A DNA stretch of 58,009 nucleotides, filler included, from Dugesia japonica (lineage: Eukaryota), in the NCBI GenBank assembly GCA_001938525.1. It is 5 parts of 5 records of this genome, joined end to end, with 100 filler letters (N's around TTAATTAATTAA, not from the genome) between each part and the next. Parts side by side here need not be neighbours in the genome. Positions count along the whole stretch, not along the records: positions 1 to 9,911 come from MQRL01440320.1; 4 more parts are not named here. One strand, written 5' to 3'. A program made the translations under genes and the position numbers. Position 1 is the stretch's first letter. Each line of letters opens with the position of its first letter. The notes beneath the pieces are model-generated. The model made no database searches and was not told where the DNA came from. It saw only the letters and a list, made by a program, of their open reading frames with translations. Of this stretch, positions 1 through 28,040 are shown piece by piece.

Positions 1-2572
1 ACCCCAACAGCAGTATTATTTAGATAACCTTTATTTTTTGATTTCTGTTAATTATTTAGTAGTACTGAAAATCAGATTTGATTATTCATACTATTGTATT
101 TTTCAATTTGAATTTTATTTAGATAATTATACAGTTGTAATAAACTGATTTATTTACTGTTAAATTGTTTTAAAATTTCTGCGCCTAAATTTCGATATTG
201 TAATACTGGTTTTCAATCTTTCTAGTTAAATATTTTATTTAGAACGTTATATATGCTAAAACCTAAAATGTCGCACTTCACAATTTTATTTGTAGCTTTT
301 TATCAATTATAAACTTTATTGATTTATTTTAATAAAATTTTTTTAACATAAAACTCGTTCTCTTAATTATTTATTATTATTATCATATTATTTTAATTAT
401 TTAAAATTAACTTTACGCCTATATTAATTAATTTGGAGTCAACTTTTAATATTTTTATTTCTTACCCACGAGATCTAACAACAGGAAGAAATATAGTAGG
501 TGGAAGGTACAGATGTCAAGCAAAATAAGATCTCTTGAGCAAACGAATAAGACAAAAATGAAATGCTTTACAGCTGGGTGGTTGGCAGGAACATTTTTAA
601 CATACCTTTTTATTTTTCTTTAATAGAAATATAATGATGCATCAATAAAATTTTATTTTAAAAAATTTAGCAAATGATTTTTCTCTTTGTGCATACTTTA
701 AATACCGCTCATAAATGCCGCTCATAAACAACTTAGTTTAAAGTAATCTTATTTAATTTAATATTGTAAAAAATCATAAAATTTATTATTAATATTATTC
801 AATCAATTTTATTCCTTATTTAAATTCTAAGTTTATTTATTATTATAATTTTGAGATATTTACCAAAATGTTTCATTATCAATCTATACTTATTAAAACA
901 AACCTAATGAAATAAAATAAGCTAAAATAAATCTTATGTTTCCCATCATTACAAAGGAAATTGGTGAAAAAACCAAAAAATGAAATAAAGTAATTTAATA
1001 AACAAAATGTTAGTATTTAAATATATATAAATTGCTTCTCTTCTAATAAAAGAGAATATTTCTTTAAAAGGTTGGGTCATTACTGTCAATATTTTATTTG
1101 CATACATAAACAGAAGAAATTGGTGAAAAGGTTTGGCAACTGTTTGTAGAGATCAGTAAAATTGAAAAATTAACCGGCACAATTGCACACACATCAATTC
1201 ATTGTTTATACAAAATATTTAATATTTACGATTTGCATTCTACATCCAATGGGACGAATCATTACTTATATCAAATAAATCTGATACTAAATTGATTCAA
1301 AAGTCATTCCATATTCAATATTTATGAAGAATAATAAACTCAGAATCATAAGTTACATAATCCATAAAATATAAGTGTTGGGGTGCAACACCCAGTCGGT
1401 AAAGAAAGCCAAGCTAGAGGCCAAAGTAGAAGAATTAATGAAGAAAAGGGGCCGAAAGAGAAGTTAATTAGGAAAAAAGTATTTATAATGGGAAAAATTA
1501 TGGTAATGACATAAACAAAAGCCACAAGAAAAGTGAATTAAGAATAATCAGTATGGCTAAATATTATGGAAATTAATTAATAAAAAGATCAAAGTACGAA
1601 GAAAAAATGGATATGAAAATCTTGGATGAACCAATCTGATTCACAATAATCAAAAGAAATTACGAAATTAATAATAAAAAGTCAAGAAAAGTATTACTGA
1701 AAAATAATTAATTATCAGAAGATATTAATTAATTTGGAATTAAGTCGAAATCAGGCAAAAATCTGTTTTTCATAGATAATTCCACTAATGAAAGTCACAG
1801 GAGCTTGGTGCAAGAAAATCCGAGAAGAAATTGTGACGGAGCATTAGGATTTTGCCATTAGAAAATCGTACCACCATCAGAAGGATCACCACAAGAGTTA
1901 AAGAAATAGGCCAATAAGAATAGGAGGAATAAAAATGAAACAAAGTCGTGATGATCACATGGCATTACAAAAATAGAAGCCAATGGAAGCCCATAAAGTC
2001 TACAAAATTTTCAAAAATTAGGCATTGGAACCAATAAGAAACGAGAATTTTAAGCTGGAAATAAGAATCTAATAGCGAGGATGGCGAGTTGTGTTTTGGA
2101 AACTATATAAGCGGTTGAAAATTCAGAGAAAAATAATAAATATTCATTTTATCAATCGTGAACGATAACAAACTATTGACCAATTTGCTAATAATATGTG
2201 AACAAGCTAATCTAGTATTAGAACATAATTCAGCAAACGGACTGATCATCAGAAAAATTTACGGAACTATAAAAGGCAAACATAAGTAACGATAGTATTG
2301 TAAGCAACCGAAAATAATTTTAGTTTGAAAGGAAATTAGGAATAGAAGTGATCAACGAATCCAGGATTATTCGAACTCTCCAGAAATTTCGTTGCAGAAA
2401 ACCATAATTACTTAGTAAGTATCTAGTTTTTGTTATTATTAATGGTAGTAAATAATTAGATATTAAGAATGAATTTTGATACAGTAATGTTATTGATTAG
2501 ACAAAAATTCTGTTACAGTATTAATAAAATTAATTACGTCGTCCTCTTATTTTCCTTTTTATTATATCTGAA

Positions 2573-2896
2573 TCACTGCAGTCGTGAAGTCATCAAGAAA
2601 TCGTTGATTGATGATGGATTTCCCTCTACGTTGTTGCTATTTTTAGGTAACGGTGGCATGAACTCATGAGTAATCGTCCCCTTTAAATATAAATCCAGTA
2701 AAGATATTAGCAAATTCTCTAATTGATACAAATTCTGATAGTCAGAGTTCAAGCACACATATATGACAAGGTTGTGTGGTTCAACTAAGGAATTCAATAA
2801 CGACTCTTTCGTAATGTTGTACAACATATCGACAACCGGTGTGTGGATGGTTTTGATGGCTGACTCATCCCATTTGTCACCAGTTGTAGGTGGTAC
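2573..2896 (-). pseudogene. Unknown ORF inside the 4.6-kb element (about 107 open codons)
   Basis: The 84-aa track ORF extends upstream in frame as VPPTTGDKWDESAIKTIHTPVVD-MLYNITKESLL... Composition looks protein-like. No family recognised. Confidence 0.35.
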
Positions 2897-3967
2897 TTAA
2901 TACACGCAGCAATGTTAAAATAAAATTTTCAATTAGTATGAAATCGTCTGAGAGAAGTAGTTGTCAGATAAAAAAAAACAATTTAACCAGCACAATTCGC
3001 GACCGTAAATGGCTATAAAGTTACTTGGTAAAGGGTGATTCTAGCTAAAGGAAAAGATACTATGCTCATCAATTCTAATGTTCGGAGAATAATATCTCGA
3101 CAATCGAGAAAATGATTTTTAATTGATAACGATGAAACTCAGGTTCATGTGGATATAAACAGTTTTCTTTGTCCAACTCAATCAATGATTTCTAACTTGT
3201 TATTTATGCCCGAATGTATATTACTGGAATTATTGTTATTACTCAAATAAATCTAACTATTACGATAAAATTGTTTTTTTTAATATTATTTCGAGTAGTA
3301 GTTTTACTAAAATCAATGATTATCTAAAATTCATAAGAATACTGGTTGATTACTCAGTAATTAAAATAACCGTTGGGTGAAAGAAGCGTTTAATAGTGGT
3401 ACTCCATAACTCATTCCCCATATTATTATTCTTGATAGCAGAGATGAAAGCGGAACTAATTTTGTTTTTAGGTTTTCCCAACCTGTTCAAATAACTTTGA
3501 TTCAACAATGCAAACGCCAGATAATACGTTTTAGACCCATTTTGAATTCTGAGGTCGCAAAGTTTTGCTTACCTGATCATGACTGGCGCCATTGCTCCGG
3601 TGTAGTTAATTTATAAAATTATCATTAATTTAGGTAATGCGGAGGCGACTATATTTAACTCTATCAATTCCCGATCTCGTTTTTGAATTAAATATAAAGA
3701 ATATTATGCATGGCTCTAATGATCACTATCGAAATATTTTATCGTGTACATTAATATAGATACTAGGTTTCTGCAGATGAGAAGGATTAATGGTAGAATT
3801 TTATGAATGTTCACTGTGAATTACCATAGAAGGTGTCGCAACATGCCTGGAACATATTTTTATTAGGATTTCGACTAGAGGTCCTAATGTATTTCGAAGG
3901 CGCCAGATTCTAAAACATAAACCATAGATACGACAAGCGAACCAAGTTAAGATTTCCTTTCATTTAG

Positions 3968-5725
3968 ATTATGTCCGACCCTCTCAGCCGTGTACTACGC
4001 CACATTCAGAAACAACGAAAAACCTCCAGGCTAAGGCAATTGTTAGATAACCTGTTGACTCACGGGAAGATCGAACATCCCGAAGAAATGGATTTGTGTT
4101 GTTTTGTCAAGATGTTTCCGTTGTCACCCGTCAAGGATTTTGATGGGGAAAATTAACAGTTTATTTAGTTTCATTTTGTTTTAAATAAATTATTCATTAA
4201 AATAATTGTTAATCTTACAATTAGTACAGTGCATGTCTTACATTTAATTTATAGAGTATATGTAATACATATGGGAGACCCTATTCGATTGACGTACTAA
4301 TAGGGTCGTTTTTCGCAGGTATTGGAACCCTCATGACCGAAATGCAGCGGTCCTGATCGATTATTCCAATTTATCCAGCATAGATGCAGAGAATGAAAAA
4401 GAGTTGGCTGCGGCTTAGCGCCAGGCCTTTTACCAATGGAAAGGACCCGATCGTACTCAAGAGGTACTCTACTGTGCCACAGTCGTAGACCCTGTAACTA
4501 ATCATCCTACTAGGGTGTGGCGAGACGGTCCAACGTTTATACCTGTGTCGGTTGCGCACCTGCCACCTGGTATTAGCTAGACGGAATCCGTGCAAAACAC
4601 GTTGTGTGAGTTACGTAACTGAGCAGATGGTGGGGCTTTGGAAAATGATAATATATTAACTTGAGTAAAGCATGCTTCATCATAGTTCAGATCTTGTTTT
4701 CGTGTTCTGTTGTGAAATAAAATGTATCTTATTTGTAACATTTGTTCGTTATCGCAACGTAAATTAGTATTTTGCCATGTCATGTTATAAATCTTAGACC
4801 AGTTAGCGTTTCGGATGTTATCTTACCTTTACGAAACCTGAATAACTTAATAGTTTCTGTTTATTTTTAGTGCACTCGTCTCTAAACCGTTCGTCAGCTC
4901 CGATGAAAAAGATGCGCGATCCTAGTGAGAACCAAGAGATGACTTGGGACCTCAATCGCCTCGCCAAACGACGGTGGGAGGTTGATACCGCGTCAGGAGA
5001 GGCCAATATCAAACGCTACAAGGCCAAATGTGTCTCGTATAGAAAGGAAGTGGAAGCGTCACATGCTTAAGAAAGAGTATGGAAGACTCAAGTTGAGTCC
5101 TTCGCAGTAATCATCCGATCCTACCAAGACCGCGAGAATAAACTGGTTAATGACGTCTTAAAATTAAAAGCAGCAATGCCCCTCGAACCATTGTTTGTCG
5201 ATAAGGGTATCCAAACGTCAAGACAATGACTTAATCATTGAACTGTATATAAAATATATTGTAAAATTTGGTTGCATTATTCTTTCCGCTCACTTTATTT
5301 TAAAGACATTTTCGCCTCACAATAAATAAACATAATTTGTTATAGTTATCATACTAAATATCATACTGTTTTCAGTGGCACAAATTAGAATTCCGAATAG
5401 CTTGTGACGTTGTCACCACCTGATACAAAAATCATTGGTAGAAAGACATGTCAAACGACAGAGTGAAAGGACCCTACTAAAACATCTGTCCCAGCGCAAT
5501 AAATTAATCAAAAAGATGGAAGTTATTGTTTAAAAGCAGAGTGACATGACAACGCAAACCAAGCAGCTCCTGCAAAATAAGATAGATTATATCTCCGACC
5601 TGTCTCGTCAATTAGGTAATGTGTCATGTTTGTCATGGGATGATAACGACAACACAGCCGTGTTTAATTTTATACCAGAAGAGCCTACCCTGTGGTTAGA
5701 CCCAGGTACTCTGGATAAAATGTGA
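3968..5725 (+). pseudogene. Array of four acceptor-led mini-ORF cassettes inside the 4.6-kb element
   Basis: Cassettes at 3968-4156, 4319-about 4654, 4871-5229 and 5376-5725. Each is GC-richer than its flanks, follows a pyrimidine tract plus AG, and holds one frame of about 60-120 codons with 0-3 internal stops. Confidence 0.45.
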
Positions 5726-7216
5726 TTTAAAATTAATACATATTATTATTAGTATTTTGTTTTTCTTTTTTATGATGATTAAAATAATAGGGAAATGAAT
5801 AGGGACCCAAACCCAAGGTGAAGTATGAACCTCGCAAGAAGTTGAAGGTCAACCTCTCTGAACTGAATATCTAATGTAGGGACGTTAGATTAAAATTCTT
5901 GAAAAATGAATTCCTGAGGGCCGTTTTTTCCCGGCCGATATCCTTTTCAATATAAACTCAGGTGGGAACCCAACATAAGTAATAAACAAATTTTAGCTAT
6001 ACAAATGCTATTGAATAATAGGTGTTACTCAATAGATGAAATAAAATTTAGTTTATATAAAAATTAATCACTCAGGCTGAATGATATAAGTAATATAGAT
6101 ATAATATTTGAAACTAAGTATAACTTCAGGCGTTACAAGAATATTTTTAAATAAGTTGAAATGAGACTACCATGTGATAAAATAACTTTAGTTGTAAATG
6201 TTGGAAGATATAAATAACAAAATTTACATATAAACGTGCAGAACAAATCATGCATGGTAATATCTAAATTTTAAAAGGTATTTATTACATGGAAAAAGGT
6301 ACGTAATATGTTATTATAAAGAATAAACAAAGAAATCGCAGTGAGTGTATTTCCCGTCCATACTAATATAAATGGAGCATATACTGAAATAGGTAATCAT
6401 CATCATAATCGTCATCATATTTTTAATTGAGAAAAATTAAAATTAAAAACGTACATTAATTAATAAAACTAAATTTAGAAAAATAAATATTAAATAAGAA
6501 TTTATTTATCTTTTTAAAAATTCTTTCCACTTTTTCTCAATATTTGTTTTTTTATTAAGCTAAATTTAAATTAATCATTCAAACGCTTCAGTTAATTTCC
6601 TCTTCGCTTGTTATAATTTTTATACTAACTGTGAAAATTTATTATTCTACAAATTGATTAAATTCCTAAATTAAACGAATTTCCAATCCGGAATATTTTC
6701 ATTTCATGATTATTTATAAATTAATAATAAATTGAGTTCCTGGTGAAATTGAATTCCGGATTCAAGTTAAAATTTTATTATTAAACTGAATAATTGAAAA
6801 AATTAAATGAATAATTAATTACAACATCGATTTCGACGTTCTATGAATGGAATTGATATTATCCGACATTTATTGAAATATAGTAAATTTTCTCTATTAA
6901 TAAATTAGTTTACAAAATAATTCGAGTTATTTTTAAAATTGTATAAATATTTTATAAATATTTTATAAATATTTATTTAGAACTTGTTATTAAATTTCGT
7001 TGGATGACTACAATAATGTTATTTAACCCCGCATTGTCCCTTGTGTCACACAATTATTTTACTTATTATTAAAAACTTGCAAACTGTTATATAACTCATT
7101 GTTATTTTAAGATATTCTTTTAAGTTCTCTTTTTGTTTAAATGCATTAATTTGGTTTTATTTGTTTATCAAGGATTCTGTTTCAATTTTGAATTACTTTT
7201 GAGACTCGATATATTT

Positions 7217-7394
7217 TGTCGGGGTAAACACGACACTTGTGAACTCTTTTATCAAATCATTACTATCTAAGATCCGACTGTATTCAGATCAGATGCGTTT
7301 CTCTTAATTAATTCTTCCAAATAAATAATAATCACTGTGATTGAATCCGATTAAACTGATTAAACGTTATTTATAAACACAAATAACTTTAACA
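7217..7394. mobile_element. Possible small solo LTR (178 bp)
   Basis: TGTCGGGG...TTTAACA termini, flanked on both sides by TATATTT. The flanks are AT-rich, so the duplication could be chance. Confidence 0.3.
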
Positions 7395-8789
7395 TATATT
7401 TTCGGCAAATCTGCAAATTTCATGCAAAACTGACTTTATAGTATATTTTAAGCACGCGAAAATGTTAAATTTTAACATTTTACACAAAAAATATTACAAA
7501 AATAAATAAAATATTAGCATACTCAATGTTGACTTTTACAAAAGTCCTCCAATAAAATAGTTCGTCAAATAAAATTCATAAAAATAAATTTCCAATCAAA
7601 TGATTTGGTCACTTCGAAATCCCATTGTTCGCACATCAACTTTTAATTATCGTTTTCAACAGAGGGTTTAGGATCGAACCCCTTAAAATTTTATTTTAAA
7701 ATTATTAGTAACCTCTATATTACTCATGTGTGAAATATTTTATATTCAAATAAATTATTTCATCTAAATTTAAATATTCAAAGTTTTTATAGTATGTTTT
7801 TAACCACCTCATCTACAAAAAAAATCTCACGTTATTTACTATGATTTGTGGAATTTAGACTTCATTTCAAATTATATATTTATATTTATTGTTAAACTGT
7901 GTTTCTCTTTTAGATACCCCCTTTTTCAGCAATACACGAATCAATTGTTTGTCTCATTATTTATATTGATTTTGTATCTTTATATAATTTATTTTTATAA
8001 TTTCATTTACAGTATTAAATACATATAAATTTTAAAACTGATATGTTTTAATTTATTTTGAGCTTTTGGAATATTAACTTTTATTTATTTTAATTTTCTC
8101 AACTATCACAATTTTAATAATTTAGTAAATGACTTCCCGCAATTTTAACAGATTGTTTACCCCAACCACCTCTTGCCACTACAAATATGATTCCACAAAG
8201 CTGTGACCGCCCCTACCACCAAAAAAGGTAAGAAATATTTCAAATAAAACATTTTAAATCCCCCTTACGGCAAAAATTTTTTGTTCGGACAGATGGTAGA
8301 AAAGAAATGTCTTTAGTATTGTGTAACGGCAAGGATGGAGGTATTATTTTTAAACAAATTCGTGTATTATATATCAGTCAAAATCTTTGGTATACTCTCA
8401 AGTGAATTATATTCTAAATTCTCTACGACAATTAATTAATGACAGTACTGAGATAATGTTTCAAATAAGGTGTCAAATTTAGATAATTCATCTAAGAATG
8501 AACAAAATAAAGCAATTCTTTAATTACCCGATTTGCTTTATTATTCTTTAATATTAGTTCAAATTCATGATTTATCTTTAATTAATCTTNNNNNNNNNNN
8601 NNNNNNNNNNNNNNNNNNNNNNNNNNNNNNNNNNNNNNNNNNNNAATTAACAAACGAAACTGAGTAATTCGAATTAGCAAAGTAGAAATAGTAATTATTC
8701 GATAGTCGAAAAAGTATTGAGCCTTAGGAAGTCCGAATTTAAACAAATATTTATTATATTTACAACAAACAATACAAACAAACAAGTAA

Positions 8790-9911: not shown

Positions 9912-10011
9912 NNNNNNNNNNNNNNNNNNNNNNNNNNNNNNNNNNNNNNNNNNNNTTAATTAATTAANNNNNNNNNNNNNNNNNNNNNNNNNNNNNNNNN
10001 NNNNNNNNNNN
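9912..10011. other. Artificial assembly spacer N44-TTAATTAATTAA-N44
   Basis: Exactly 100 bp. The same structure occurs at 23752-23851, 33514-33613 and 45498-45597. Confidence 0.95.
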
Positions 10012-11194
10012 TTAAGCAACAAGAGCTACAAAAGAACGGGTGAAGAGGTGTCTGTTTCAGTTCTCTCTGAACCATTTTGGAAAAAATTTCAGTTGTACTT
10101 GGATATAAACACACCAGTTTTTCAACTGCTACGACTTGTTGATGATGAAGCCTCTGTTACTAGAAAAATTTATTTCCGAATGTTTACAATCCAAGAATTT
10201 ATAAACAACCTTCAAAATATATCAAAAGCTCAGCGTAAAGAGTTGCAGAATTAATTTTCTAGAAAATAGGCTATGATGCACACAACACTTCATGCTGTTG
10301 GATTCCTTCTAGATCCGGAATATGTTAACATGGCTCAACATGCAAATGACGAAGTCATGACTGGATTCTATGAACTAGTAGAACGATTGCATCCTGAAGT
10401 GAAGGAGCAAGTCATTATAACAAACCAATTAAATTACTTTATATCAAGTCAGGGAATAATTGCACGCCCAGTAGTAAAAGCTGCAGCGAGTACTATGCAC
10501 ATCAATGGTGGCACAGTTTTGGCTCGGGCTTACCGGAGCTCCAGAGATTTGCTATACGGGTACTAAGCCAAACCCCAACTTCGAGTGCTGCTGAAAGGAA
10601 CTGGAGCCTATTTGGTTTCTTCCAGAATCAGAGAAGGGTTCGGCTGAATCCAAAGACGATTGAGAAGATGGTTTATATCCACGCGAACACACGTATAATC
10701 TACAAAGTGGAACAAGTACATTACGTTGAAGAGAACGTGGAGTGGAATGAACCAAATGATTACATCAGTGATACTGATATGTCAGAACAAGAACAAGAAC
10801 AGTCACATTCTCCAGATGAATAGAATTTGGATAGTTTTGCAACTTTACACATTCATTCTTTATAATTGATATCATAATAATAAAGATGAATTGGTAAAAT
10901 TCAAAATTCATTGACGGACTTTATGGGTGTAGTTTAGAATACAAAATAAACGTGTGAATTGTGTTAGAACGGTTGCCATTCTTTAATTTTGCGATTATTT
11001 TTGTAATTCTATAATATATTTGTTGGGTTATTTAAGTTCAATTAAAAAAAAACTTATTTCACAACTTTATTTCGAGTAACTTAAACCAAAAAAACGTATG
11101 ATATTTATTAATTTAGCCAAAAAATAGCGTACGTGTACGGTACACATTTTTGCAGAAACAATAGCGCACGTTCCGTACGTATGGTTGAACTTTG
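10012..11194 (+). mobile_element. hAT transposon 3' half (DUF659-type, with hAT dimerisation domain), degenerate
   Basis: LHAVGFLLDPEY, then frameshifted HQWWHSFGSGLPELQRFAIRVLSQTPTSSAAERNWSLFGF...RLNPKTIEKMVY. GC-richer subterminal sequence ends near 11194. Confidence 0.85.
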
Positions 11195-11521: not shown

Positions 11522-13950
11522 TGTTAGCTTTCAGACTTTTTAGTCCAACTTTTTCTCTTGTCATCTTCTTTATGATAACCAATGGCTTCAAGAAATGTGC
11601 TTTTGGTATCCAATGCAAAATTGAATGCTGATTCAATTACCGCCATTTGCATATATTTATCGTTTATATCTTCAACCTTTAAATTATTTTGCGTTTATGA
11701 TGCTTCTTTGAATATAGTGTTAGGTAAATCTTCAATTGGTAATTCATTTTTCAAATCACAACTTACATTTTTAGATATTATTTATTTCACTACTACAACA
11801 CATGCTTGATAAAATAATTATAATTGAATAGAATTGATTAAATCTTAACATTGAATTTGGTCACTTTCTATTGGCTAAAGTTATTCATTAACAATTATTT
11901 TCTTATATCCCCCTTCTTAAGAAACTTTCTAAGTTTTCCACATTTCTTTCTAATAGCTGTCCTTTTTCTCCTTGTACCGCATACCGTCTTCCATGAGTTT
12001 TCTCAATTATTCGATAAGGACCTTCAAATCTGTCTTGACTTTTATTTCTTGTTTCTACCTTGATGAGTACATAATCTCCAACTTTGAATTCTCTTTTAAA
12101 AGTCACTTCTGAAATTCTTTCCTTATTTCTCTCTGAAAAGTCTGACTCATACTACTTTTTTCTGCTGATTTTCTTTACAAAAACGATTTCAACCAGGCTC
12201 TTTCCAGTAGTCTTCTGCTTTGTTGCATTCATTGTAAATTCTATTTCGAGTTACAGATCTGACCAATCTGTTGTCTTTCTCTACTGAAATTTTGCATTAA
12301 TTCAATCTCGAATTGTACTGAACTGTCCTTCAATTTGTCCATTTGCATTTGATGATAGGGACTCAAAAAGCGAAGTATAATATCTGGCTTCTGTATAAAT
12401 TCTCTCATAATTCTTGATTCAAAGCTTTTCCACAATTCAGTCTTATCTCTCTTGGACATCCAAATCTTAATATTCACTTCTCAAAAACAGCTTTCCGTAT
12501 TTTTTCTCGTCTTATCTAGGCAATGCTATAAGAACTAGATATTCACTGTACTCGTCTAATATTCCAAGAATATATTTTTTCCGTCCACGTGTTTCTTTCA
12601 TTCGCCTGCATATATATGTAAATATAGCTTCAAATAAATTGGTAGCTTCTAATTTGTTTGTCTTTTTTTTAGTTGCTGTCGTCACTACTTTGGTCTTCTG
12701 ACAAATTTCACTACTATGAAATATCTTCTGTATTTGGCTCCAGAAATTCTTTGCAATATATTTGTTTCTTATATATTCGTACACCATTTCAACTACTGCG
12801 TGGTATAATAATTTATCTATTTCTTCTATTGTTTCATGTAGTTTGTCATCCGGAATTTTCATTTTCTTGATTATATCATTTTCTTCAGAAATCTTTGATT
12901 GATCCTTTTTTCTTTTACAATTGTGTTCAGTACTCTTGTTTTAATTTTACCTTTTTTGGCATCTTCATGTGACATTTGACACTGTACACATATGTCAAAT
13001 TTTGGTCTAGATAACATATCTACATTACTATTTTGAATTCCTTTTCTATATTCCAAAACCATGTCTAAACTACTCAGATAATTAATTCATGTTTGGCATT
13101 GCGTCGTAATTGGTTTCTTCGTCGTTATCATGGCTCAAGGTTAGAGTTTTATGATCTGTTTCAAGATTAAATCTTCGTGTAATGCAGTATCCTTTTTCGT
13201 GACTCGTCATTGAGTGTGATCCATAAGCAACAACCCTTTCTCTTCCTTCTTTATCTCTCTGTGACAATACTGATCCAATTGTATCAAAACTGGCATCTAT
13301 ATCCAATATAAGTTCCTTGTTTATTTCTGGAGAACACAATATTGGTGAAGTAATTAGAGATTTCTTCAGACCCTCAAAAGTATCGTTTATTTTATCTATC
13401 CATTATAATTTCTTGTTTCTTGGTAACGCTACACAACTGTTCTAAGATTCTTGATTTTCTTGCGTAGTTTTCCATAAACTTTCTGTAATAATTACAAATT
13501 CTTTAGAAATTTCGTAGCTTCTTCACGCAATTAGGCTATCCCAGTGTTCTTATTGCTTTTATTTTAGACAGATCAGTTCTGGCACCATCCCTGCTAATTA
13601 AGAGTCCAAGAAATTTTATTTCGCTTTGAAGAAACTGACACTTTTCTGGATTAATTCTTAAACCAGCCTTCATTATTTTTGTCAGTACTTTCTCAATTTC
13701 TTTATAAGGTTGATCTTTATTGTTCGTAAATATCAGAAATTCATCAAGATAAACCGTGGCTCAATTGATTCCGCCCACTTCTTTTGTCATCATCTCCTGA
13801 AATGTACCCTGTGCCGCTGCGATGCCAAATGGTATACTATTAAAAGAATATTGTCCATGCTTCGTTGAGAACGCCGTTTTTTCTTGAGATTCTTCTTCGA
13901 GATCCACATGATAGTATGCATTTCCCAAATTTATTGACGTTAAAAGAGTT
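11522..13950 (-). mobile_element. Ty3/Gypsy remnant: RT (partial), RNase H, integrase, PPT, 3' LTR
   Basis: Motifs TAFSTKHGQY, PFGIAAA.GTFQ, VYLDE, DASFDTIGSVLSQ, TDHK, DMLSR, integrase H..C..C and RFEGPYRI. PPT AAGAAGGGGGA near 11908-11918. LTR about 11648-11907. Confidence 0.9.
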
Positions 13951-14205
13951 TTAGCCAGTCAAATGCCACATTTTGTCTGGTGAAGACAGAGTCAATATGA
14001 CTAAAACAGAGTATCGTTCACAAGCGTTAGAAACCATAATAATTGAAAATATAAGAAATATGATAGTTGTAGAATGCACCAGTTATATTGCTTATGAACA
14101 AAGATTCATACCTGATGCTTTAAATATGACGGATGTTTGATTTTAATTGTATCTTTTTGCTGTGAGATGTGTTCTAACTTATTCCTATTCTGTGTATTTA
14201 ATAAA

Positions 14206-14219
14206 AATCTATCTATCTA

Positions 14220-14260
<41 letters not shown>
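14206..14260. repeat. Compound microsatellite (ATCT)n(CT)n(AT)n
   Basis: Seen directly in the sequence. Confidence 0.9.
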
Positions 14261-14699
14261 GAGTAAAGAGTTTAAGTAATATTTAAAATTATTATATTCA
14301 TATTCAGCATCAAGTTTCCCCAGTTCAATGAAAATATCCGATTCCATTGTATCATGTCAATTCTCAAGTTCTTTATCAGATTCCTTCAGCGTTCCTACTT
14401 GGGGTTGTGACAATCTTAAGTAATGATTATATTTTTATTCAAATTTCGCTATTTTATTATAATTTGATTATTTTAATATATCAAATTTAGAATTTTTCAA
14501 GAATAATCCTCATTTTACAATTAGTTTCTTTAGAAATAACAATCATTTTTACAATTTTACAAACTTTTACTGTAGACAAATGATATCTTTTCGTAACTGT
14601 TTCAGAGTTTGCGTGACCAAATTTGCTCAACGTTTCTTCTTAAAATGTTCAACAAAAAATTAAATCATAGAGCATTTGATCTACAAAACAAAATTTGAT

Positions 14700-17600
14700 T
14701 CACAATNAGCAATTTCTTATTAAGTTTCGAACATTTACGCTGGCTGCGTCTTTTTCGTTCCTTCCTTGATTTTTGTTATTAACACTTTAGCTTTCTGGTA
14801 TGTTATAAAGCTTCGGACAACCTATTTTACTTTGTTTCACAAATGTTTTGTGTTATATTTATGCTTCATATACATTGCTACTTTTCTGCTCCAGCATAAC
14901 ACAAAAGATGGTGAATCCTCAATAATAACTTCTTCTACTTTATCATCAGTTATTCGTTTTCCTTCATCGTTTTCACCAAAAATGCCTTGTTTCTCTTGAA
15001 TATCTACTGTTTTAACATCCTTGTTTATAATTTCTACTTTTTGGATCTTCATGTGACATTAGACATTGTGCACATGTATTGCATTTACTTTTTGACAACA
15101 TATCCGCATTTTTATGAAGCGATCCTTTTCTTTATTCCAATTTTATATCTAAACTGCTCAAATAATTAATCTAAGTTTGAAACTGTGATGTAATCTGTTT
15201 CTTGGTATTTAGCATAAAAATAATAGCCTTCTGGTCTGTTCTGAGAATAAATCTATTTCCATATAAGTAATGTTTGAAATGAATGCAAAACTAGTAAATT
15301 GCGAGTAATTCTTTTCGCATAGTACAATATTCTTTCTCACGACTCCTCATTGCGTGTGACCCATATGCAATTACTCTTTCTTGCCCATTGTTCTCCCTTT
15401 GAGATAGTACTGCCTCAATCTTATCGAAACTTGCATCCGTTTCCAAAATAAATACTCTATTTATATCTGGAAAACATAATATTGGAGACATCTTAAGTGT
15501 TTTTTTCATTCCATTAAAAACTTATTTTAATTCATTCGCCCATTCAATTTTCTTGTTACTCAGTCCACTACACAGTTGTTCCAGCAATCTAGCTTTTCTC
15601 GAATAATATTTTTTAAACTTGCGATAGTAATTACAAATTTCCAAAATGCTTCTCATCTTCTTAACGCATTTTGGTCTACCAAAGTTCTTAATTGCTTCTA
15701 TTTTAGCTGGATCTGTTTTGATACCTTCTTTACTGATAACGTGTCACAAAAATTTGATTTCCTTCTTCGGATTAACTCTTAGACCAGCATTCTTAAATTC
15801 TGTTAATACTTTATTGACTATTTCATAGTGTTGCTCACTTGTTTCGGTAAATATGAGAATATCGTCTAGATAAGCCATCGCTCCTTTAGTTTTCTCGTTC
15901 ACTTTATTCATCATACCCTGAAACGTTTCTGGTGCTGCTATAATTCCAAAAGACATTATATTGAAACAAAATTGCCCTTGTTTGTTCGAAAAAGTCATTA
16001 TCTATTAAGAATCTTCACTGAGTTCTACTTGATAGTGTGCATTTCCCAAGTCTATTGAGCTAAAATACTTTGTACCTTCTAAAGCATACAGCATTTCGTT
16101 CACATTTGGCATAGGAAAAGCTTGTTTTTCTGTTATAGCATTGAGCTGTCTAAAGTCTAAGCATAATTATATATCCTTTTCTCTTTTTCCAAACGCAGAT
16201 TAATAGCGTATTCCATTGAGCATTACACTTCCGGGNGATACCGTTGTCATACAGATTCTCGATGGCCTCTTCAATCTTCTCTACTAGATTCATTGGTTGA
16301 CGATACGGTTTTATGTTGATTGGACCTCTTTTAAAGATTGTTCGATGCTTCTTTAAGTGTGTACATCCAATATCTCATTTATCCTCCATAAATACATCCT
16401 CATTATTCTGATTAATCTCAGTCAATCTATGATCTTTGTTAATTCCAAGAATCTCCACTGCATGTCTCAATCGATCACCTGTCTGTATCTGCCTTCCAAA
16501 TTTTGCCTTAATGTTGCAAACAAATTTGTTTCGATGATTATTGATGTCTAACATGCACTTTTCTGAAGATGATACCTAAAGNTATTCTGAAATTCCACTC
16601 CACCAATTAGATCTGGTATTAATTTCTCTACTATTATAAATGTTACTTCCTCGCATACCTCTGAAATTACAACTTCCACGCGTATTTTTTCAATTGTTTC
16701 TAATGAGCTATTATTCGCACAATGCAGTTGTTCCTTGCTTTTCCCTAATATTGTTTTTCCGAGTCTATTAAATCCTTTCATACTCATTACATTTATTCTG
16801 AATCTTGTATCTAGCAAACAATCAAACTGTTCGCCTTTGATCATCACTGAAATACTAGGTCTCCCTTGCATTTTATCATATGAAATTTCTGCGTTCTGTT
16901 TCTTTTCAATTATTCCTATCACTTCTGCTTTGTTAACTTCCGCATCATTGAAACTTCGGTTTTTTAGGAATCTGTACACTTTTTCTCCAACTTTGTTAAT
17001 CTCATCCCATTTCTCGTTTAATGAATGGCTCCGACCAACTCCTCTACTGATGGAGCCCTGCCTTTTGGGTATTCTCTTCTCGGATTTTCATTTTCTATTA
17101 TGCTCTCAGAAAATATCTCTTTATTCTCTTCATCATCTTCTTCTTGAATGGCATAAATTTGTCTGATCCGACTCCAATCTTTTGTTTGTTGTCCGCTTTT
17201 AAAATTGTATCTCCTTTCTTCTAGTCTTTGTTTATTAATGTTCGAATAACATTCTTCCGCTCTGTGACATGGTCTTTTACATCTCCCGCATACAATTTCT
17301 GTGCACATCCATCTGATATGACCAATCTTATCACACCCAACACATTTTGGTGGTTTCTTGTTTTGTTAATTTCTACTTAAATGCCCTTTCTTGTGTCAAG
17401 TCCAACATTCTACATGAGAATTTTTTGGACACTCTCTTTTTGTATGCCCACAACTCTGGCATGTCTAACACTGTAGTTCTGTTCTTTTCGCAAGTCTCTC
17501 GATATGTTGTCTCCTCTCTCGAGTACGTTTTCCACGTGTTATACTTGCTTAACTCTTTACTACGTTAAAAGGTTCTCTTCTTTCTATTTTTTCCACTAAT

Positions 17601-17860
17601 GATAACGTTTCTTTTATATCCTCTATTTTCTCCAATTTTTGCATGATAATCTCTTCTTCTACTTTTTTACTATCTGCACAAATAATTAGCATTTTGATAA
17701 AAGTTTTTCTTTTGTCAGCTTTCCATTTGCTAAAGATTTATCGACCAAATCTTCCACTTTTTTAAAAAATATCTCAAGTTCTTCATCACCGCGTCAACCA
17801 ACACCTTACAAATTTTGTAAATCATTTATTATGCTTCTCTTGCTCTCAAAGGCTAATCGC
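14700..17860 (-). mobile_element. Ty3/Gypsy remnant: gag, protease, RT, RNase H, start of integrase
   Basis: Two CCHC knuckles (CVGCDKIGHIRWMC and CGRCKRPCHRAEEC), protease CLLDT, RT AYLDDILIF, RNase H ETDASF. Confidence 0.9.
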
Positions 17861-18204
17861 AATTTCTCTCATTATTATAAAATTTTAAAATACACTAAAA
17901 ACATTTTACATTCATTTAATTTTATATTTTATTCTATTTAAAAAGTCATTAAATTTTACAATTTATTTGTAAGTTTTTTTTCTCATACAAATTTACATCC
18001 AAATTGGATTTTAAAAAAATTCCATTTTAAAATACAAAAAATTTAAGTTTGTTTACAATAAAATATCTTAAAATCACAAAACTTTTCAGCAATTAACCGA
18101 GAAAATGTTAATTTAATTTTACATTTCAATTAAAATCTAATGAAAATTGATTTTACTCAGATTTATTTAAAATCTGTTTTATGTCAAAGTTTGTAAAAAT
18201 GATT

Positions 18205-18392
18205 TACTGAGAAATAGTTCCTGAAGAAGGATATGCCGAAAAATTGAAAAAAATTGATCAAATATTTTTAAATAAATAAATAAAAATAAATTTAAATAAA
18301 ATTTATTTTCAATTGCAAAGATCAAAACGATGTTTTTCTATTTTCATAGAAGGTTCAATATTTCGGCTATCCCTTCTTCAGTAACTATTGCT
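18205..18392. ncRNA. Inverted pair of minimal hammerhead-ribozyme-like motifs (Penelope pLTR type)
   Basis: Plus strand about 18217-18250: GTTC-CTGAAGA-AGGATATGCC-GAAA-AATT-GAAA. Minus strand about 18353-18385: GTTA-CTGAAGA-AGGGATAGCC-GAAA-TATT-GAAC. Confidence 0.55.
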
Positions 18393-19100
18393 CCTTTAAG
18401 TTGTTTTTGAAATAAAAGTTTTTTTGTTGTTCAAAACGAGTTTATCGGTTTTTGAAAAGAATAATTTTTAAGTTTTAAAAAAAATTTAAAAATAGGTTTA
18501 AAATTGTTAGGTTTAATAAATTAATTTACAAATTAATTATACAAATTCGTTCATGTTTGTTCAAAGAAAGAGCATGAATTATCCAGAGAAGTGATCGTAT
18601 ATGAGAGGTGTATCACTTATAACGACTAAGAGCAACTTATTTACCACTATCAAACAACTAACTCGTAAAATAGAAAAATAGAAAAATCTTCAAGAGACCA
18701 TAAGAACAATCACAAAAAACNCACAACGGCTCAGGAAGGTAACTTATAAAAAAGAATTTTCTAATCACAATATTATAAACTAAAAAACAAAACAAACTAG
18801 AAAACAGGCGAGACCAATTGATAGCAATTTATCTTGATGAGGATAAATTCATCCAATAATATATTCCTTGTTATCCATTAATTTTGCATTACCTGTTAGT
18901 GAAGCTTTGACGTAATGAAGTTTCTCATGCTTTAAAAGATTTTTACTTCAGAAATAAGATAGGCCAAGATAGATTGTTATGTTTAGCGTTATTAAAAAAT
19001 CATAGGTATATAGATAGATAGATAGATATATGTTAATCTTGGTGATGTCATAAATTTATATGTAAATATTTGAAATAATCAATAATTTAATAACAATAAG

Positions 19101-22100
19101 TTAATCCTTACATCTCCCTCGATTAAAAGAATTTCTAAGCTTTTCTACGTTTCTTTCTAGCACTTTTCCATTTGCATTTCTTATACGATATCTTCTCTCA
19201 TGGACCTTTTCAGTGATCTTGTATGGGCCAGCGTATCTTTCATTGTCTTTTGTTCTAGTTTCTAGTTTATCAATACTTCGTATCCCACTACCAAAAATTA
19301 ATTCTGCTAGAGATATACTCAATGTCTTTGGCCTTGTTGCATTCAAAATGTATTCGATCTCCGGTATCCTGTTACTCCAATCCTTTCTTCTATCTTCCTC
19401 TGCGACTGCGTTAATACAGTCTCTGATTGTGCGGAATGGTCTCTCTATAAACATGTTTGTATTGTGATGATATGGAGATGAAAACTTATTTTTATGTTCG
19501 TCGATTCCATCCAATTCCTGAAGTTTTTGATTCAAATGTTTTTCCACTGTCCACGTGAACTTCTCTTGGAGCTCCAAGTCTCAAGATCCATTTTTTATTA
19601 TCACTTTTTTAATCGTCTCATCATCTTGCGTGCTGATTGCCGTTAGGCTGACATTTCGACTGTATTGACCTATTGTTCCACATATGTATCTTTTTATGTT
19701 CACAGTCTCTCGAAAAGGCCCACATATTCCTATATATACCTTTTCAAATGGGCAATTTGCTCTTAATTTTACTGTTGTCTCTTTTGTTGCCACAGTATTA
19801 ACTTTGTTCTTTTGGCACGCTTCGCATTGTCTTATCACTTCTGTGATTCTCTTATTCAGTTCTTTCATGTCGTGTTTGCTGATCATTTTTGCTGTTCCCG
19901 CATGTATTAACAATGTATGTATTTCTTTGATCATTGATATTCTTTTCTCTTTTGGAATCCAAATTTTTCCGTCACTTGTTTTCACTATATTATTTTGAAT
20001 ACTTTCCTTCTTGAATATCTCGTTTGATTATTTTGATTTCCTCTTTTCCCTCCTGCCGTTTACATCTTTCTATCTTTACCATCTGATTTATCTGTCTTTT
20101 TTTTATCTTTCCCATCTATTGATCTTCTTGTTGCATTTGACATTGAGTACACGTTCCGCATTTCATTCTTGAGAGCTAATCTGCGTTTGCGTGTTTCTTG
20201 CCTTGTCTATACATTAGTTCCATGTCTAAGCTGCTAAGGTAATTCATCCATGTCTGGGGCTGAGGTGTTATCGGTTTGTTCGTCTTTTTCATGAATACAA
20301 TGGCTTTGTGATCTGTGCTCGTTATTAATTTTTTCCATTTAAATAATGCTTAAAGTAATTGCAGAAGTAGTAGATTGTTAGTAATTCCTTCCATGTGATA
20401 CAGTTGCTATTTTCATGTGATGTCATTGCATATGAGCCGTAAGCAATAAATCTTTCTCTTCCATCATCATCATTTTGTGATAGGACCGCTCCTATTGCGT
20501 CAGTATCTAAAATAAATGTTTTCTTTATATCCGGGAATCTTAGAATAGGCGTTTCTATCAGTGCTTATTTTATTTCTGCGAAAGCTTTTGCACATCCATC
20601 TTACCATATTAGCTTGGTGCTGTTACTTTCACATAATTTTTCTAGGGCTCTTGATTTCTTTGAATAGTTCTTGATGAATCTCCTGTAATAATTGCATATT
20701 CACAGGAAGCTTCTCAGGCTCTTTACACATTTGGATTTCTCAAAGTTCTGGATATCTTCGATTTTCATTGGATTTGTTCGAATTCCTTCTTTATCTATTA
20801 TGTGACCAAGAGATTTCACTTCTTTGCGTAATAGGTGACATTTTTCTGGATTCACTCGCAGCCCTGCCTTTTGGATCCACTCTAATACCTGACCCAGAGT
20901 TATAAAATGCTCTTTTAGTCCTTCTGAGAATACCATTATGTCATTCATATACAACATTGCTCCATCTAGACCGTCCAATACCTTTGTCATTAGTTCTTGG
21001 AATGTTCCTGGGGCTGCTGCTATACCGAATGGCATTCTTGTGAAGCAATATTGACCATTTTTTTGTCGAAAAGGCTGTTTTCTCTTGTGACTCTTTACCT
21101 AACGGTACCTGGTAATACGCGTTTCTAAAGTCTGTGGTACTGAAATATTAAGCGCCATACTAATTGTCTAACATTTCTTCCACGTTTGGCATTGGAAAGG
21201 CTTGTCGTTCCCTAACAGCGTTCAGTTTCCTGAAGTCGATGAAAATTCTCACATCCTTTCTTTCTTTCTTCCAGACGCATATCAGTGGTGTATTCCACTG
21301 CAAATAACATTTATAATATTAGCGTCCGCTAAATCTTTTATAGCCGTATTTATTTTTCTTCTAGATTCATGCGTTGTCTCCAAGGTTTCATATTTATTGG
21401 ATTACCATTTGTCACTATCTTGTGTTCTGCCACCATTGTACATCCGAAATCCCAGTTATCTGCCATGAATACTCCTCGATGTTGCTCTATTATCTTTTCC
21501 AGTTTTTCGTCTTATTTTGTCATCAAAATTCTTAAACCTCTCTGTTCTCTTTCAACATCCACAATTTTCCGACCAAACCTTGCGTCTATGTTGCAGATCT
21601 ACTGTTCCACATATTGAACATCTAATTTTGTTACAATTTCTTCTTAAATGATTCACTGATCCGCATGCGTAACACGTTCTTTTCTTTTCCGGACAACTTC
21701 TGCTGATATAAACTATTTTCTGACATGACCAACATGTAATTTTTTAGCTTCACTTTGAGTTCGGTTAACTCCTGAGAAACGTTCTTTTGTTATGCCCCTT
21801 TTTACTGCATTGATGTAACTCACCACAGTATTTATATTGTCTGTTTCTTTTAGGTCCTCTTTAGTTCATCATTTGTTTTTATTGTTTCAAATATTTCTTC
21901 CGAGTTGGCTAATTTGCCTACTTTAATTTTTATTTGCATCCTTTTATCGCCGCAACTATTGAATATTTATTCTTTTGTCATCTCTTCTTTATCTAGTTTG
22001 TGTGCAAAGATTTTATCGACCAGTGTTAAAATCTTTTTCTTGTATTTTAAAGCTTTCTCCGAATCTTGTATGAGAGTAGTCTTTTTGTGGAATGCTTTCC

Positions 22101-22526
22101 TCAATCGGTCCTCAAAATCTAATAATTAAGCTTACATTCATATGCTTCTTTTAATTCTCGATCAATTACGCCAACCACCAAGAGGTTTTTATCCTTTTTC
22201 TTTGCACCAATATATTCGAAGTATTTGGCTTAACTATTGATAAACAGTTCAATATCGTCACCATACCGGTAAATTCCAGAGTGTAGGGCTTCTCGAATGA
22301 AGTCCATNNNNNNNNNNNNNNNNNNNNNNNNNNNNNNNNNNNNNNNNNNNNNNNNNNNNNNNNNNNNNNNNNNNNNNNNNNNNNNNNTTCAAATCTTAAA
22401 AAAATATTTTTTAAAGGCTGAATATTTAAACAAAGTTGTTTAACTATTTTTAAAAAATTGTTCAAATCTTTTTTAGCATTTTCTTCTTCAAACTTTAAAT
22501 TGCAATTTCAATTTTTAATTCTTACA
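19101..22526 (-). mobile_element. Ty3/Gypsy element with 5' LTR, gag, RT, RNase H and integrase; protease deleted and 3' LTR truncated
   Basis: 5' LTR remnant 22388-22526. CCHC knuckle CYACGSVNHLRRNC, then a direct jump to post-protease sequence. MPFGIAAAPGTFQ, YMND, SPYHH, YAGPYKI. PPT near 19113-19121. Confidence 0.9.
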
Positions 22527-23525: not shown

Positions 23526-23851
23526 TTTCCGTTTATAAATATGAATTATTAAATTTGTTTGGAAAAAAACAATTTATGTTTTAGTTTTTATTTTGAAATA
23601 AATTTTATGGAATTGAATTTGGATGTTGAAAATCCGAGTTCTCAAAACTATTCTAACAACTAGTACAAGGAAAATGTCATCAAAACTGCCTTTTCATTTT
23701 TAATGAGGAATTGATGAGTAATAAATATCGATATTTTCAAACAAATTTGAANNNNNNNNNNNNNNNNNNNNNNNNNNNNNNNNNNNNNNNNNNNNTTAAT
23801 TAATTAANNNNNNNNNNNNNNNNNNNNNNNNNNNNNNNNNNNNNNNNNNNN

Positions 23852-25845: not shown

Positions 25846-26772
25846 TGTTAGTTACAGATAAACTTTCTGAAAAGTGTATTAAATTTAATAAATTTTTATT
25901 TATAACACGAAATTTCAAATCTTCAAAAAACTATTTTTTAAAGCTGAATATTTAAAAAAACATTTTAAATATTTTAAAAAATTCTTGAAATATTTCATAG
26001 CATTTTCTTTTTCAAACTTCAATTTTTATTCCTTACATCCCCCTCGATAAAAAAAATTTTGAAGTTTTTCTACGTTCCTTTCAAGCTCTTTTATTTTCGG
26101 ATTTCGTATACGATATCTTCTATCATGTACCTTCTACGTTATTTTCTATGGACCAGCATATCGCGGCAACTATTAAATATTAATTCTTTTGTCATCTCTT
26201 CTTTGTCTAGTTTGGATCAACCAGTGTTAAAATCTTTTTCTTGTACACATAAACGTGTTCATCCGTTCTCATGTATTTTAAAGCTTCATCCAAATCTTGT
26301 ATAAGAATAGTCTTTTTGTAGTACGCTTTTCTCAGTCGGTTATCAAATTTTAATAATTCATCTCGGCATTCATATGCTTCTCTTAATTCTCGATCAATTA
26401 AACCAATCACGAAGAGGTTTTTATCCTTTTTCTTTACACCAATACATTTGAATTATTTGGTGCAAATATTGAAAAACTGTTCAATATCATCATCATGCCG
26501 GTAAATTCTTGGGTGCAATGCTTCTAGAATGAGGTCTATTGAAGCGTTGGTCGCCATGTTAGTTACAGATAAACTTTCTGAAAATTCCATTATATTTAAT
26601 AAATTTTTTATTTATAACACAAAATTTCAAATCTTCAAATATTAAAAAAACTATGTTTTTAAAAGCTGAATATTTAAACAAATATTTTAAATATGTAAAA
26701 AATTCTTGAAATATTTTATAACATTTTCTCCTTCAAACTTTAAATTCCAATTTTTAATTTTTAATCCTTAAA
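25846..26772 (-). mobile_element. 927-bp non-autonomous LTR element (TRIM-like deletion derivative of the 19-22 kb Gypsy family)
   Basis: Two related LTRs (26557-26772 and 25846-26037), PBS TGGCGACC, PPT GAGGGGGA and a 5-bp TSD AAAAT (25841-25845, 26773-26777). The gag N-terminus is fused to the integrase C-terminus. Confidence 0.88.
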
Positions 26773-27223
26773 AAAATATTTTCGTTAAGAACTTCGGTCG
26801 AATTATCAAAAAATGTAACTGTCTTCAACCATACTTACATTTAGTATTTAAAATTTATAGCACTTAATTTTTGTTTTTTCAAATTTTTACATTGACACAA
26901 ACAATATTTACAATAATCTCCAGTAAATCATCTATAACAAATGACGGAAATGATTATAGAATTTTCATTCTCATCACAATTAGTAATTATATCAATGCTT
27001 TAAAAATCGAAGACTTCATTCTTAATTCATTTTTACTTAAATATATAATATAAAGTTGTTTATAACATTGTCATTTCTTATGTTTTATTGTTCCGTCTTT
27101 ATTTCTTCTTTTTAATCGATTTGTGTCCCTTTTAACGCTAAATTCGTAAATTTGTACTAGATTTTACCTTATTTTGTCATTATTTTGACTTATTAAGTAT
27201 AATAATAATTGTGAAAATTATCA

Positions 27224-27711: not shown

Positions 27712-28040
27712 TAAATAAATGTTGGATGAGGATAGCGTTTTTTTGCTTATAATAATAATATTAATAAAATCAAAATAAGCTTCAAACCATTCAAATTGTA
27801 TTGATAGTATTAGGTTAAAAACTAACTGGACATACATTATTCAATTATAAATTATTCTGTATTATTGTAATGAAATTACCTAATTTTTAATATATCCAGT
27901 AATTGGTTTAATTTTAATGTTCTTACCAATTAACTATAATCACTTGATAATCAAATAGTTGCATGCGTGATTATTGATTAGAATTCAAAGTATAATTATA
28001 TCATAACATTTATTTATTATTAATATTTCATATAGACAAA

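What the first reader, a model, noticed from the sequence alone, without database searches (positions are those of the whole stretch)
1376..5975. 4.6-kb TG...CA element with a perfect 4-bp TSD: probable giant solo LTR
Seen in sequence: TAAG|TGTTGGG...CCCAACA|TAAG, 4600 bp, no recognisable gag, pol or transposase. Known: TG..CA ends with a 4-bp TSD are typical of Gypsy integrase products, and planarians carry giant Gypsy elements (Burro) with multi-kb LTRs. Inference: this is a solo LTR left by LTR-LTR recombination of such an element. It is about 20 times longer than the other LTRs in this window.
Basis: partly seen in the sequence, partly recalled or inferred. Interest (0 to 1): 0.7.

Follow-up and report, generated by a model that had tools for sequence, protein, structure and literature searches.

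The report
Giant solo LTR carrying small ORFs
This 4.6-kb stretch is a real insertion, most likely the orphaned end-piece (solo LTR) of a giant retrotransposon, and unlike ordinary LTRs it seems to carry at least one small protein-coding gene of unknown function.

Summary
Observation confirmed: TAAG|TGTTGGG...CCCAACA|TAAG, 4600 bp, no gag, pol or transposase by Pfam. The end motif alone is weak, since 98 such pairs occur in the window. This pair is the only one of the 98 with both ends within 3 bp of a strong composition step, and both ends fit the published LTR integrase-site consensus. There is no second LTR, PBS or PPT. A CCAAT x3 / TATA / AATAAA block sits 530-760 bp from the 5' end. A solo LTR of a giant Gypsy-type element is the best reading (about 0.7). 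The decisive test (other copies, an interior) could not be run, and the link to Burro is untested.

A 61-aa ORF (3971-4156) has a full-length homologue at 47% identity (E 4e-7) and follows the best-scoring plus-strand splice-acceptor-like site. Further small, partly broken ORFs follow, with weaker support. Giant planarian LTR elements are known; small genes downstream of an LTR promoter would be a new variant.

The parts
1372..1375 (.). left copy of the 4-bp target-site duplication (TAAG)
1376..5975 (+). inserted element, probable giant solo LTR (GC 0.35 vs 0.23 in the flanks)
1376..1382 (+). 5' short inverted repeat TGTTGGG; fits the LTR integrase-site consensus TGTTRNR
   Evidence: consensus from PMC3601003; 2 of 98 chance pairs fit
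1376..2103 (+). purine-rich U3-like block (A 0.45, G 0.20)
   Evidence: U3 assignment is inference
1909..2037 (+). three RRCCAATVR (CCAAT-box-like) motifs at 1909, 1978 and 2029, all on the + strand
   Evidence: 3 on +, 0 on - in the element; 15 window-wide; motif pattern recalled
2104..2110 (+). TATA-box-like TATATAA
2135..2140 (+). first AATAAA after the TATA box (candidate poly(A) signal; one of 13 on this strand)
2415..2420 (+). splice-donor-like GTAAGT (inferred only)
2573..2896 (-). ORF D: antisense stop-free frame of 107 codons (84 aa from ATG 2827); no homologue found
   Evidence: 4 of 1000 local shuffles as open, block chosen post hoc; no hits
3950..3967 (+). best-scoring splice-acceptor-like tract on + (1st of 131 YAG sites), 3 nt before the ATG of ORF E
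   Evidence: my own ad hoc score
3971..4156 (+). ORF E: intact 61-aa ORF with a full-length homologue P0001 (60 aa, 47% identity)
4293..4664 (+). ORF C: GC-rich frame of 123 codons with 3 in-frame stops; coding status unsupported
   Evidence: 511 of 1000 shuffles as open; no Pfam or PHROGs hit
4853..4870 (+). second-best acceptor-like tract on +, 32 nt before the ATG of ORF A
4903..5229 (+). ORF A: 108 codons with one in-frame stop; coiled-coil-like; no homologue found
   Evidence: ADIP E 0.014, below cut-off; 56 of 1000
5408..5725 (+). ORF B: 105-codon frame with one stop (59 aa from ATG 5546); the ATG at 5448 after the acceptor-like site at 5375 is in another frame
   Evidence: two weak Pfam hits below cut-off; 66 of 1000
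5969..5975 (+). 3' short inverted repeat CCCAACA; fits the consensus YNYAACA
5976..5979 (.). right copy of the target-site duplication (TAAG)

Best explanation
The segment is a solo LTR of a giant LTR retrotransposon, probably of the Gypsy/Metaviridae kind. Step 1 (inferred): a retroviral-type integrase recognised the TGTTGGG/CCCAACA ends and inserted a full element with a 4-bp staggered cut, giving the TAAG duplication. Step 2 (inferred): recombination between the two LTRs removed PBS, interior and PPT, leaving one LTR between the original TSD copies. Step 3 (motifs shown, function inferred): the first ~730 bp are U3, with CCAAT boxes and a TATA box driving + strand transcription from about 2130, so the other ~3.8 kb lie on the R/U5 side. 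Step 4 (shown in part): that part carries at least one small gene that was under protein-level selection in the family (ORF E), probably reached by splicing to the acceptor just before its ATG. Other small ORFs may belong to the same cassette but have decayed in this copy.
For: Both motif ends sit on composition steps in 1 of 98 pairs. The ends match the SIR consensus TGTTRNR..YNYAACA, described as about 7 bp long (PMC3601003). There is no direct or inverted similarity between the first and last 1.5 kb (scores 30 and 29; shuffle maxima 40 and 33). No purine tract precedes 1376 and no TGG follows 5975, and there is no PPT-like run inside, whereas short Gypsy elements in the same window show GAGGGGGA|TGT and AACA|TGGCG. 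CCAAT x3, TATATAA and AATAAA are in LTR order on one strand. Multi-kb LTRs have precedent: Burro internal region up to 25 kb with a total over 30 kb, Ogre LTRs 1.9-6.5 kb (PMC6431247). Public runs of 3 studies hold 0.62-0.80 of the sampled words of 1000-6400 (6 of 24 rows; one study may be the window's source), so most of the sequence exists in reads. ORF E: one hit among 1.84 billion proteins, query 199-258 vs protein 1-60, E 4.2e-7; starts align and ends differ by one residue; 15 of 32 mismatches are conservative against 17 of 5000 neutral-drift runs. Four ATG ORFs of >=55 aa on + against a mean of 1.2 in local shuffles (29 of 1000).
Against: No second copy, empty site or paired-LTR parent was seen, so 'LTR' and 'solo' rest on anatomy alone. 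That a 4-bp TSD points to Gypsy is recalled; the search for it returned 0 papers, and Ginger DNA transposons also give TGT ends and 4-bp TSDs. A 3.8-kb R/U5 would be very unusual, and the U3/R/U5 borders need RNA data (PMC3601003 says so). P0001 is a single unnamed protein on a 1041-bp contig with unknown context; the selection test is biased because the hit was chosen by score and P0001 is a called ORF. Taken one by one, stop depletion is marginal or absent for E (183 of 1000), C (511), A (56) and B (66). AATAAA after the ORFs is uninformative (57 of 72 AT-rich windows contain it). The acceptor score is ad hoc, and AT-rich spacers favour T tracts. GC alone puts the left step near 1780.
Confidence: 0.68

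Rival explanations
1. The segment is an LTR-element remnant, but not one clean LTR: either a shorter LTR swollen by nested or captured DNA, or an internally deleted element that keeps the outer ends and a piece of an accessory-ORF region. The small ORFs would then be interior or passenger DNA.
For: Strong internal composition steps at about 4336, 4571, 4891 and 5191. Burro-like elements carry accessory ORFs outside the polyprotein (PMC6431247). The promoter and AATAAA sit only ~730-760 bp from the 5' end.
Against: No internal PBS after a CA-terminated LTR end and no PPT-like run. No second LTR copy. The only internal TIR/TSD pair of this class (2186-2712) has no composition step (0.3 and 1.2). 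The internal steps coincide with ORF borders.
Confidence: 0.14
2. The segment is a complete non-autonomous DNA element with short TG..CA ends, moved in trans by a Gypsy-integrase-like transposase (Ginger-like) and carrying its own small genes; it never had a second LTR.
For: Ginger1 and Ginger2 have TGTNR termini and 4-bp TSDs (PMC2836005). The element has its own promoter-like block and ORFs.
Against: Ginger TIRs are about 40-270 bp (Ginger1) or 50-180 bp (Ginger2); here the inverted repeat is 7 bp. Ginger1 TSDs are CCGG or CCGT, not TAAG. No transposase remnant.
Confidence: 0.11
3. A solo LTR of a non-Gypsy LTR superfamily (BEL/Pao or Copia).
For: TG..CA short inverted repeats are shared by nearly all LTR retrotransposons (PMC3601003).
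Against: These groups usually give 5-6-bp TSDs (recalled, not checked); the LTR-element fragments seen nearby carry Gypsy-type domains.
Confidence: 0.04
4. Coincidence: unrelated sequences with chance TG..CA ends and a chance 4-bp repeat.
For: 98 such pairs occur in the window.
Against: Only this pair has both ends on composition steps, and it also fits the SIR consensus.
Confidence: 0.03

Closest known systems
Burro / GYPSM1 giant Gypsy elements of Dugesiidae planarians (PMC6431247, section 7 read; the original description, Grohme et al. 2018, was not held)
   Same: Multi-kb LTRs are implied (interior up to 25 kb, total over 30 kb); AT-rich host; accessory ORFs are a theme of the group.
   Different: No sequence link was shown; the review places accessory ORFs outside the LTRs or does not say; one BURRO1 primer has no match; the window's species was not established.
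Planarian repeats named GLT and GLT2 (PMC8532177: passages and Table S1 rows)
   Same: By eye only, the first 400 nt of the probe cells alternate GC-rich blocks and AT-rich spacers, as here. That these are large LTR-type Repbase entries is recalled, not checked.
   Different: One primer each gave 0 matches at up to 3 mismatches; the probes were not aligned to the element; the paper gives no structure.
Ogre (plant Tat-lineage Gypsy) LTRs (PMC6431247)
   Same: LTR length 1.9-6.5 kb brackets 4.6 kb; extra ORFs of unknown function.
   Different: Plant elements; the extra ORFs lie in the internal region, not in the LTR.
MMTV sag and HIV-1 nef, ORFs in the U3 of retroviral LTRs (PMC12789967, passages)
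   Same: Protein-coding sequence inside an LTR, expressed by splicing.
   Different: Those lie in U3, upstream of the promoter, and are expressed from the 3' LTR; here the ORFs lie downstream of the promoter-like block, are 60-120 codons long and may be several; no sequence similarity was found.
Ginger1 / Ginger2 DNA transposons (PMC2836005, passages)
   Same: TGTNR termini and a 4-bp TSD.
   Different: They need 40-270-bp TIRs and encode a transposase; neither is present.

Membership tests
solo LTR | TG..CA ends with ~7-bp short inverted repeats (TGTTRNR..YNYAACA) | tested here: met
solo LTR | short TSD directly flanking both ends | tested here: met
   TAAG/TAAG
solo LTR | no adjoining PBS, PPT or second LTR | tested here: met
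solo LTR | TATA-like box and AATAAA in U3-R-U5 order | tested here: inconclusive
   motifs present, but 13 AATAAA on + and no RNA ends mapped
solo LTR | other copies share the exact ends with different TSDs | not testable with these tools
   no genome held; no reads were laid; 0 loci in metagenome, viral and prokaryote contigs
solo LTR | same sequence occurs as paired LTRs around a gag-pol interior | not testable with these tools
   needs the genome
Gypsy/Metaviridae | parent pol with PR-RT-RH-IN order and Metaviridae RT | not testable with these tools
   no interior present; the 4-bp TSD rule is recalled
Burro/GYPSM1 | sequence identity to a Burro LTR | tested here: inconclusive
   no Burro sequence available; one BURRO1 primer of unknown position has 0 matches
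Burro/GYPSM1 | host is a dugesiid planarian | not tested
   runs are coded 'organism A'; AT-richness is only compatible (PMC11410931)
Ginger1/Ginger2 | TIRs of about 40-270 bp | tested here: not met
   7 bp
Ginger1/Ginger2 | Gypsy-integrase-like transposase or its remnant | tested here: not met
   0 of 6 frames hit Pfam

The most novel reading that the evidence does not exclude
The giant LTR is itself a multi-gene cassette: a 5' promoter (CCAAT x3, TATA), a leader exon ending at the donor near 2415, and alternative acceptors that each serve a different microprotein (E, C, A, B), plus an antisense ORF (D). Every solo LTR of the family would then be a self-contained expression unit for accessory microproteins, which would explain why these LTRs are so long.
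Probability: 0.3. Interest if true: 0.7.

Novelty: new variant of a known kind. Interest (0 to 1): 0.42.

Why it matters
As a plain solo LTR this is ordinary: giant LTR elements of planarians are described. It matters more if the length comes from genes. Known LTR-borne ORFs (MMTV sag, HIV nef) lie in U3. Conserved microprotein genes downstream of the LTR promoter would make each solo LTR a portable gene cassette and would offer a testable reason for LTR gigantism. It would also change how derepressed planarian transposon transcripts, such as those seen after piwi knockdown (PMC8532177), are read. The novelty is uncertain, because the original Burro paper and the Repbase entries could not be seen and may already show such ORFs.

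Tried and rejected
Genome search: no genome is held. Read-level test of ends, copy number and expression: no reads were laid, so this stays open.

Other copies: the 5'-end 20-mer gave 0 matches in metagenome contigs. ORF E+P0001 gave no confirmed locus in viral (0 of 32 pattern hits), metagenome (0 of 469) or prokaryote contigs (0 of 45). ORF D (0 of 9) and ORF A (0 of 7) gave none in viral contigs. Window self-BLAST gave only two short AT-rich hits.

Proteins: no homologue for ORF A or ORF E alone in the word-indexed search; the E+P0001 profile returned only P0001 (1 of 2 candidates). Exact look-ups found 0 of 7 window ORFs. Pfam: 0 of 12 element and left-flank frames, 0 of 6 right-flank frames, only sub-cut-off hits for ORFs A and B. 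PHROGs 0 of 6. ESM Atlas: ORF D best 0.80 with low recognition, Tudor lead not accepted; ORF E no usable hit; ORF C was not searched there. AlphaFold of ORF E: pLDDT 56.5, three helices; Foldseek viral 0 matches at E<=0.001; neither is used. Rfam: 0 matches in 1-8000. The sigma-70 scan does not apply to a eukaryote.

Rejected: AATAAA after each ORF as support (57 of 72 background windows); the internal 2186-2712 TIR/TSD pair as a nested insert; Ginger membership.

Literature: searches listed no paper whose title or abstract start describes ORFs inside planarian LTRs (70 and 79 returned 0 papers; 85 only unrelated ones). Grohme 2018 was not held, and the supplementary PDF of PMC8532177 was too large to read; both may bear on novelty. 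Earlier-findings look-ups were empty.
Full report
1. Observation. The ends are as described: TAAG 1372-1375, TGTTGGG from 1376, CCCAACA to 5975, TAAG 5976-5979, 4600 bp, with a 7-bp perfect inverted repeat. No element frame (0 of 6, X at stops) hits Pfam at E<=0.1, and Rfam finds nothing in 1-8000. A short LTR in the window measures 192 bp, so the element is about 24 times longer.

2. Is it more than chance? The motif by itself is not: 98 pairs of the same class (TG..CA, 7-bp inverted repeat, 4-bp TSD, 0.1-30 kb) occur in this AT-rich window. Two further criteria single this one out. First, it is the only one of the 98 whose two ends both lie within 3 bp of a local four-base composition step (LLR 20.0 and 19.0); the runner-up is 12 bp off with a right step of 4.2. 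Motif-free change points gave 1373 in 3 of 4 left ranges (1326 in one) and 5975 in 2 of 3 right ranges (6394 in one) (I chose the ranges). GC alone agrees on the right (5974) but prefers about 1780 on the left, 3.3 LL above 1376. Second, both ends fit the LTR integrase-site consensus TGTTRNR..YNYAACA (PMC3601003, abstract and passages), which 2 of the 98 pairs do. The segment is a discrete insertion. Six of 24 listed runs, from 3 studies, hold 0.62-0.80 of the sampled words of 1000-6400. The element is 85% of that query, so by my arithmetic a share of 0.75-0.80 needs at least about 70% of its words. One study may be the window's source, and this says nothing on junctions or copy number.

3. 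What kind of insertion? The first and last 1.5 kb share no direct or inverted similarity above shuffles, so it is neither a two-LTR element nor a long-TIR transposon. Ginger transposons share TGTNR ends and 4-bp TSDs but have TIRs of about 40-270 bp (PMC2836005, passages); that feature is not met. No purine tract precedes 1376, no TGG follows 5975 and no PPT-like run lies inside, while short Gypsy elements in the window show both signals. The first 728 bp are purine-rich (A 0.45, G 0.20) and end in three RRCCAATVR boxes (1909, 1978, 2029; 3 on +, 0 on -), TATATAA at 2104 and AATAAA at 2135. That is the order expected of U3-R on the + strand. It leaves about 3.8 kb on the R/U5 side, which is unusual and unproven without RNA.

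4. The 3' two-thirds alternate GC-rich blocks and AT-rich spacers. One frame (3377-5722, X at stops) searched against 1.84 billion proteins gave a single hit, P0001: 60 aa, 47% identity to ORF E (3971-4156), E 4.2e-7, covering both proteins end to end. P0001 is a one-member cluster from an assembled public run, on a 1041-bp contig, with no name. Of 32 mismatches 15 are conservative; neutral drift to the same identity reached that in 17 of 5000 runs and kept both the ATG and an open frame in 140 of 5000. Both figures are favoured by how the hit was found. The two best acceptor-like sites of 131 on + (3967, 4870) precede the ATGs of ORF E (3 nt) and ORF A (32 nt). Of 226 YAG sites on both strands, 8 lead to an ORF of >=50 aa within 35 nt, and 2 of the 3 top-scoring sites are among them (score and thresholds are ad hoc). 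The + strand has 4 ATG ORFs of >=55 aa against 1.2 expected (29 of 1000 shuffles); the - strand has 2 against 1.8 (557 of 1000). Against a multi-gene cassette: block by block only antisense ORF D is clearly stop-poor (4 of 1000, post hoc), while E, C, A, B and F (3410-3616) score 183, 511, 56, 66 and 42 of 1000; AATAAA after the stops is background (57 of 72); only ORF E has a homologue. ORFs B, C and D were never given their own search of the large protein collections in their own right: B was inside the frame and had no hit, C and D were not in that frame. ORFs A, B and C carry in-frame stops, so this copy is decayed.

5. Mechanism. Shown: a discrete insertion, SIR-type ends, a 4-bp TSD, no PBS, PPT or second LTR, promoter-like motifs, and a conserved 61-aa ORF. 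Inferred: integrase-mediated insertion of a full element, then LTR-LTR recombination leaving a solo LTR (established mechanism, recalled); Gypsy rather than BEL or Copia (4-bp TSD rule recalled; one search found no paper); transcription from about 2130 with splicing from the donor-like site at 2415 to the acceptors. Confidence: solo LTR about 0.7 (0.68 Gypsy-type, 0.04 other superfamily); composite or deleted LTR-element remnant 0.14; non-autonomous DNA element 0.11; chance 0.03. ORF E a real family gene about 0.75; full cassette about 0.3. The function of ORF E is open. The model is low-confidence (pLDDT 56.5, three helices) with no fold match. My best guess, at low odds, is a small basic helical accessory factor that binds nucleic acid or a host protein.

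6. Known relatives. Burro/GYPSM1 elements have interiors up to 25 kb and totals over 30 kb, and Ogre LTRs reach 6.5 kb (PMC6431247, passages and all of section 7), so a 4.6-kb LTR is within known range. Membership in Burro is untested: the original paper was not held, one primer each for GLT2, GLT and BURRO1 from PMC8532177 Table S1 had 0 matches, and the window's species was not established. ORFs inside LTRs are known for MMTV sag and HIV nef, both in U3 (PMC12789967, passages). Three unchecked notes of this scan report ORF-bearing solo LTRs in other genomes; they are leads only and suggest the theme is not unique. PMC11410931, PMC13238120 and PMC6238403 were seen as passages and added nothing on LTR structure. 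Searches listed nothing on ORFs in planarian LTRs, but Repbase and the Grohme supplements may hold it.

7. Verdict. Observation confirmed; interpretation partly supported. The decisive copy test remains open. It works like a solo LTR of a giant LTR retrotransposon; it is not filed under Burro or Ginger. The added feature, at least one conserved micro-ORF downstream of the promoter, makes it a probable new variant of a known kind. Interest 0.42; the cassette reading has probability 0.3 and interest 0.7 if true.

Noticed in passing
window 2186-2712: An internal TG..CA pair with an 8-bp inverted repeat and AATT on both sides; no composition step at its ends, so probably chance.
   Followed up: yes
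window 25846-26782, minus strand: A small two-LTR element of about 0.9 kb: 192-bp 3' LTR, PBS-like TGGCG after the 5' LTR and PPT GAGGGGGA before the 3' LTR; looks like an internally deleted short Gypsy. TSD not resolved.
   Followed up: partly
window 27996-29519, + strand: A 507-codon, very hydrophobic, uninterrupted ORF with no Pfam hit and no exact record; probably a host multi-pass membrane protein.
   Followed up: partly
window 9912-10011, 23752-23851, 33514-33613, 45498-45597: 100-base N gaps with TTAATTAATTAA in the middle: a scaffolding spacer, which explains the long 'repeats'.
   Followed up: partly
window 10398-10823: hAT transposase dimerisation domain (PF05699, E 1.1e-10).
   Followed up: no
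window 12400-22400 and 31200-32800, minus strand; 27189-27566, + strand: Several decayed, mutually related Gypsy-like pol fragments (RVT_1 E 1.8e-18 at 20703-21098; weak protease and SH3 hits).
   Followed up: no
window 11708-11907 and 30715-30915: Two inverted copies (80% identity) of a ~200-bp repeat, each with an RRCCAATVR box (11868, 30746) like those in the element's U3-like block.
   Followed up: partly
window about 957-970 and 1116-1129: A 14-bp word occurs twice in the left flank, each time inside a short peptide-like frame; possibly a decayed gene or repeat.
   Followed up: no
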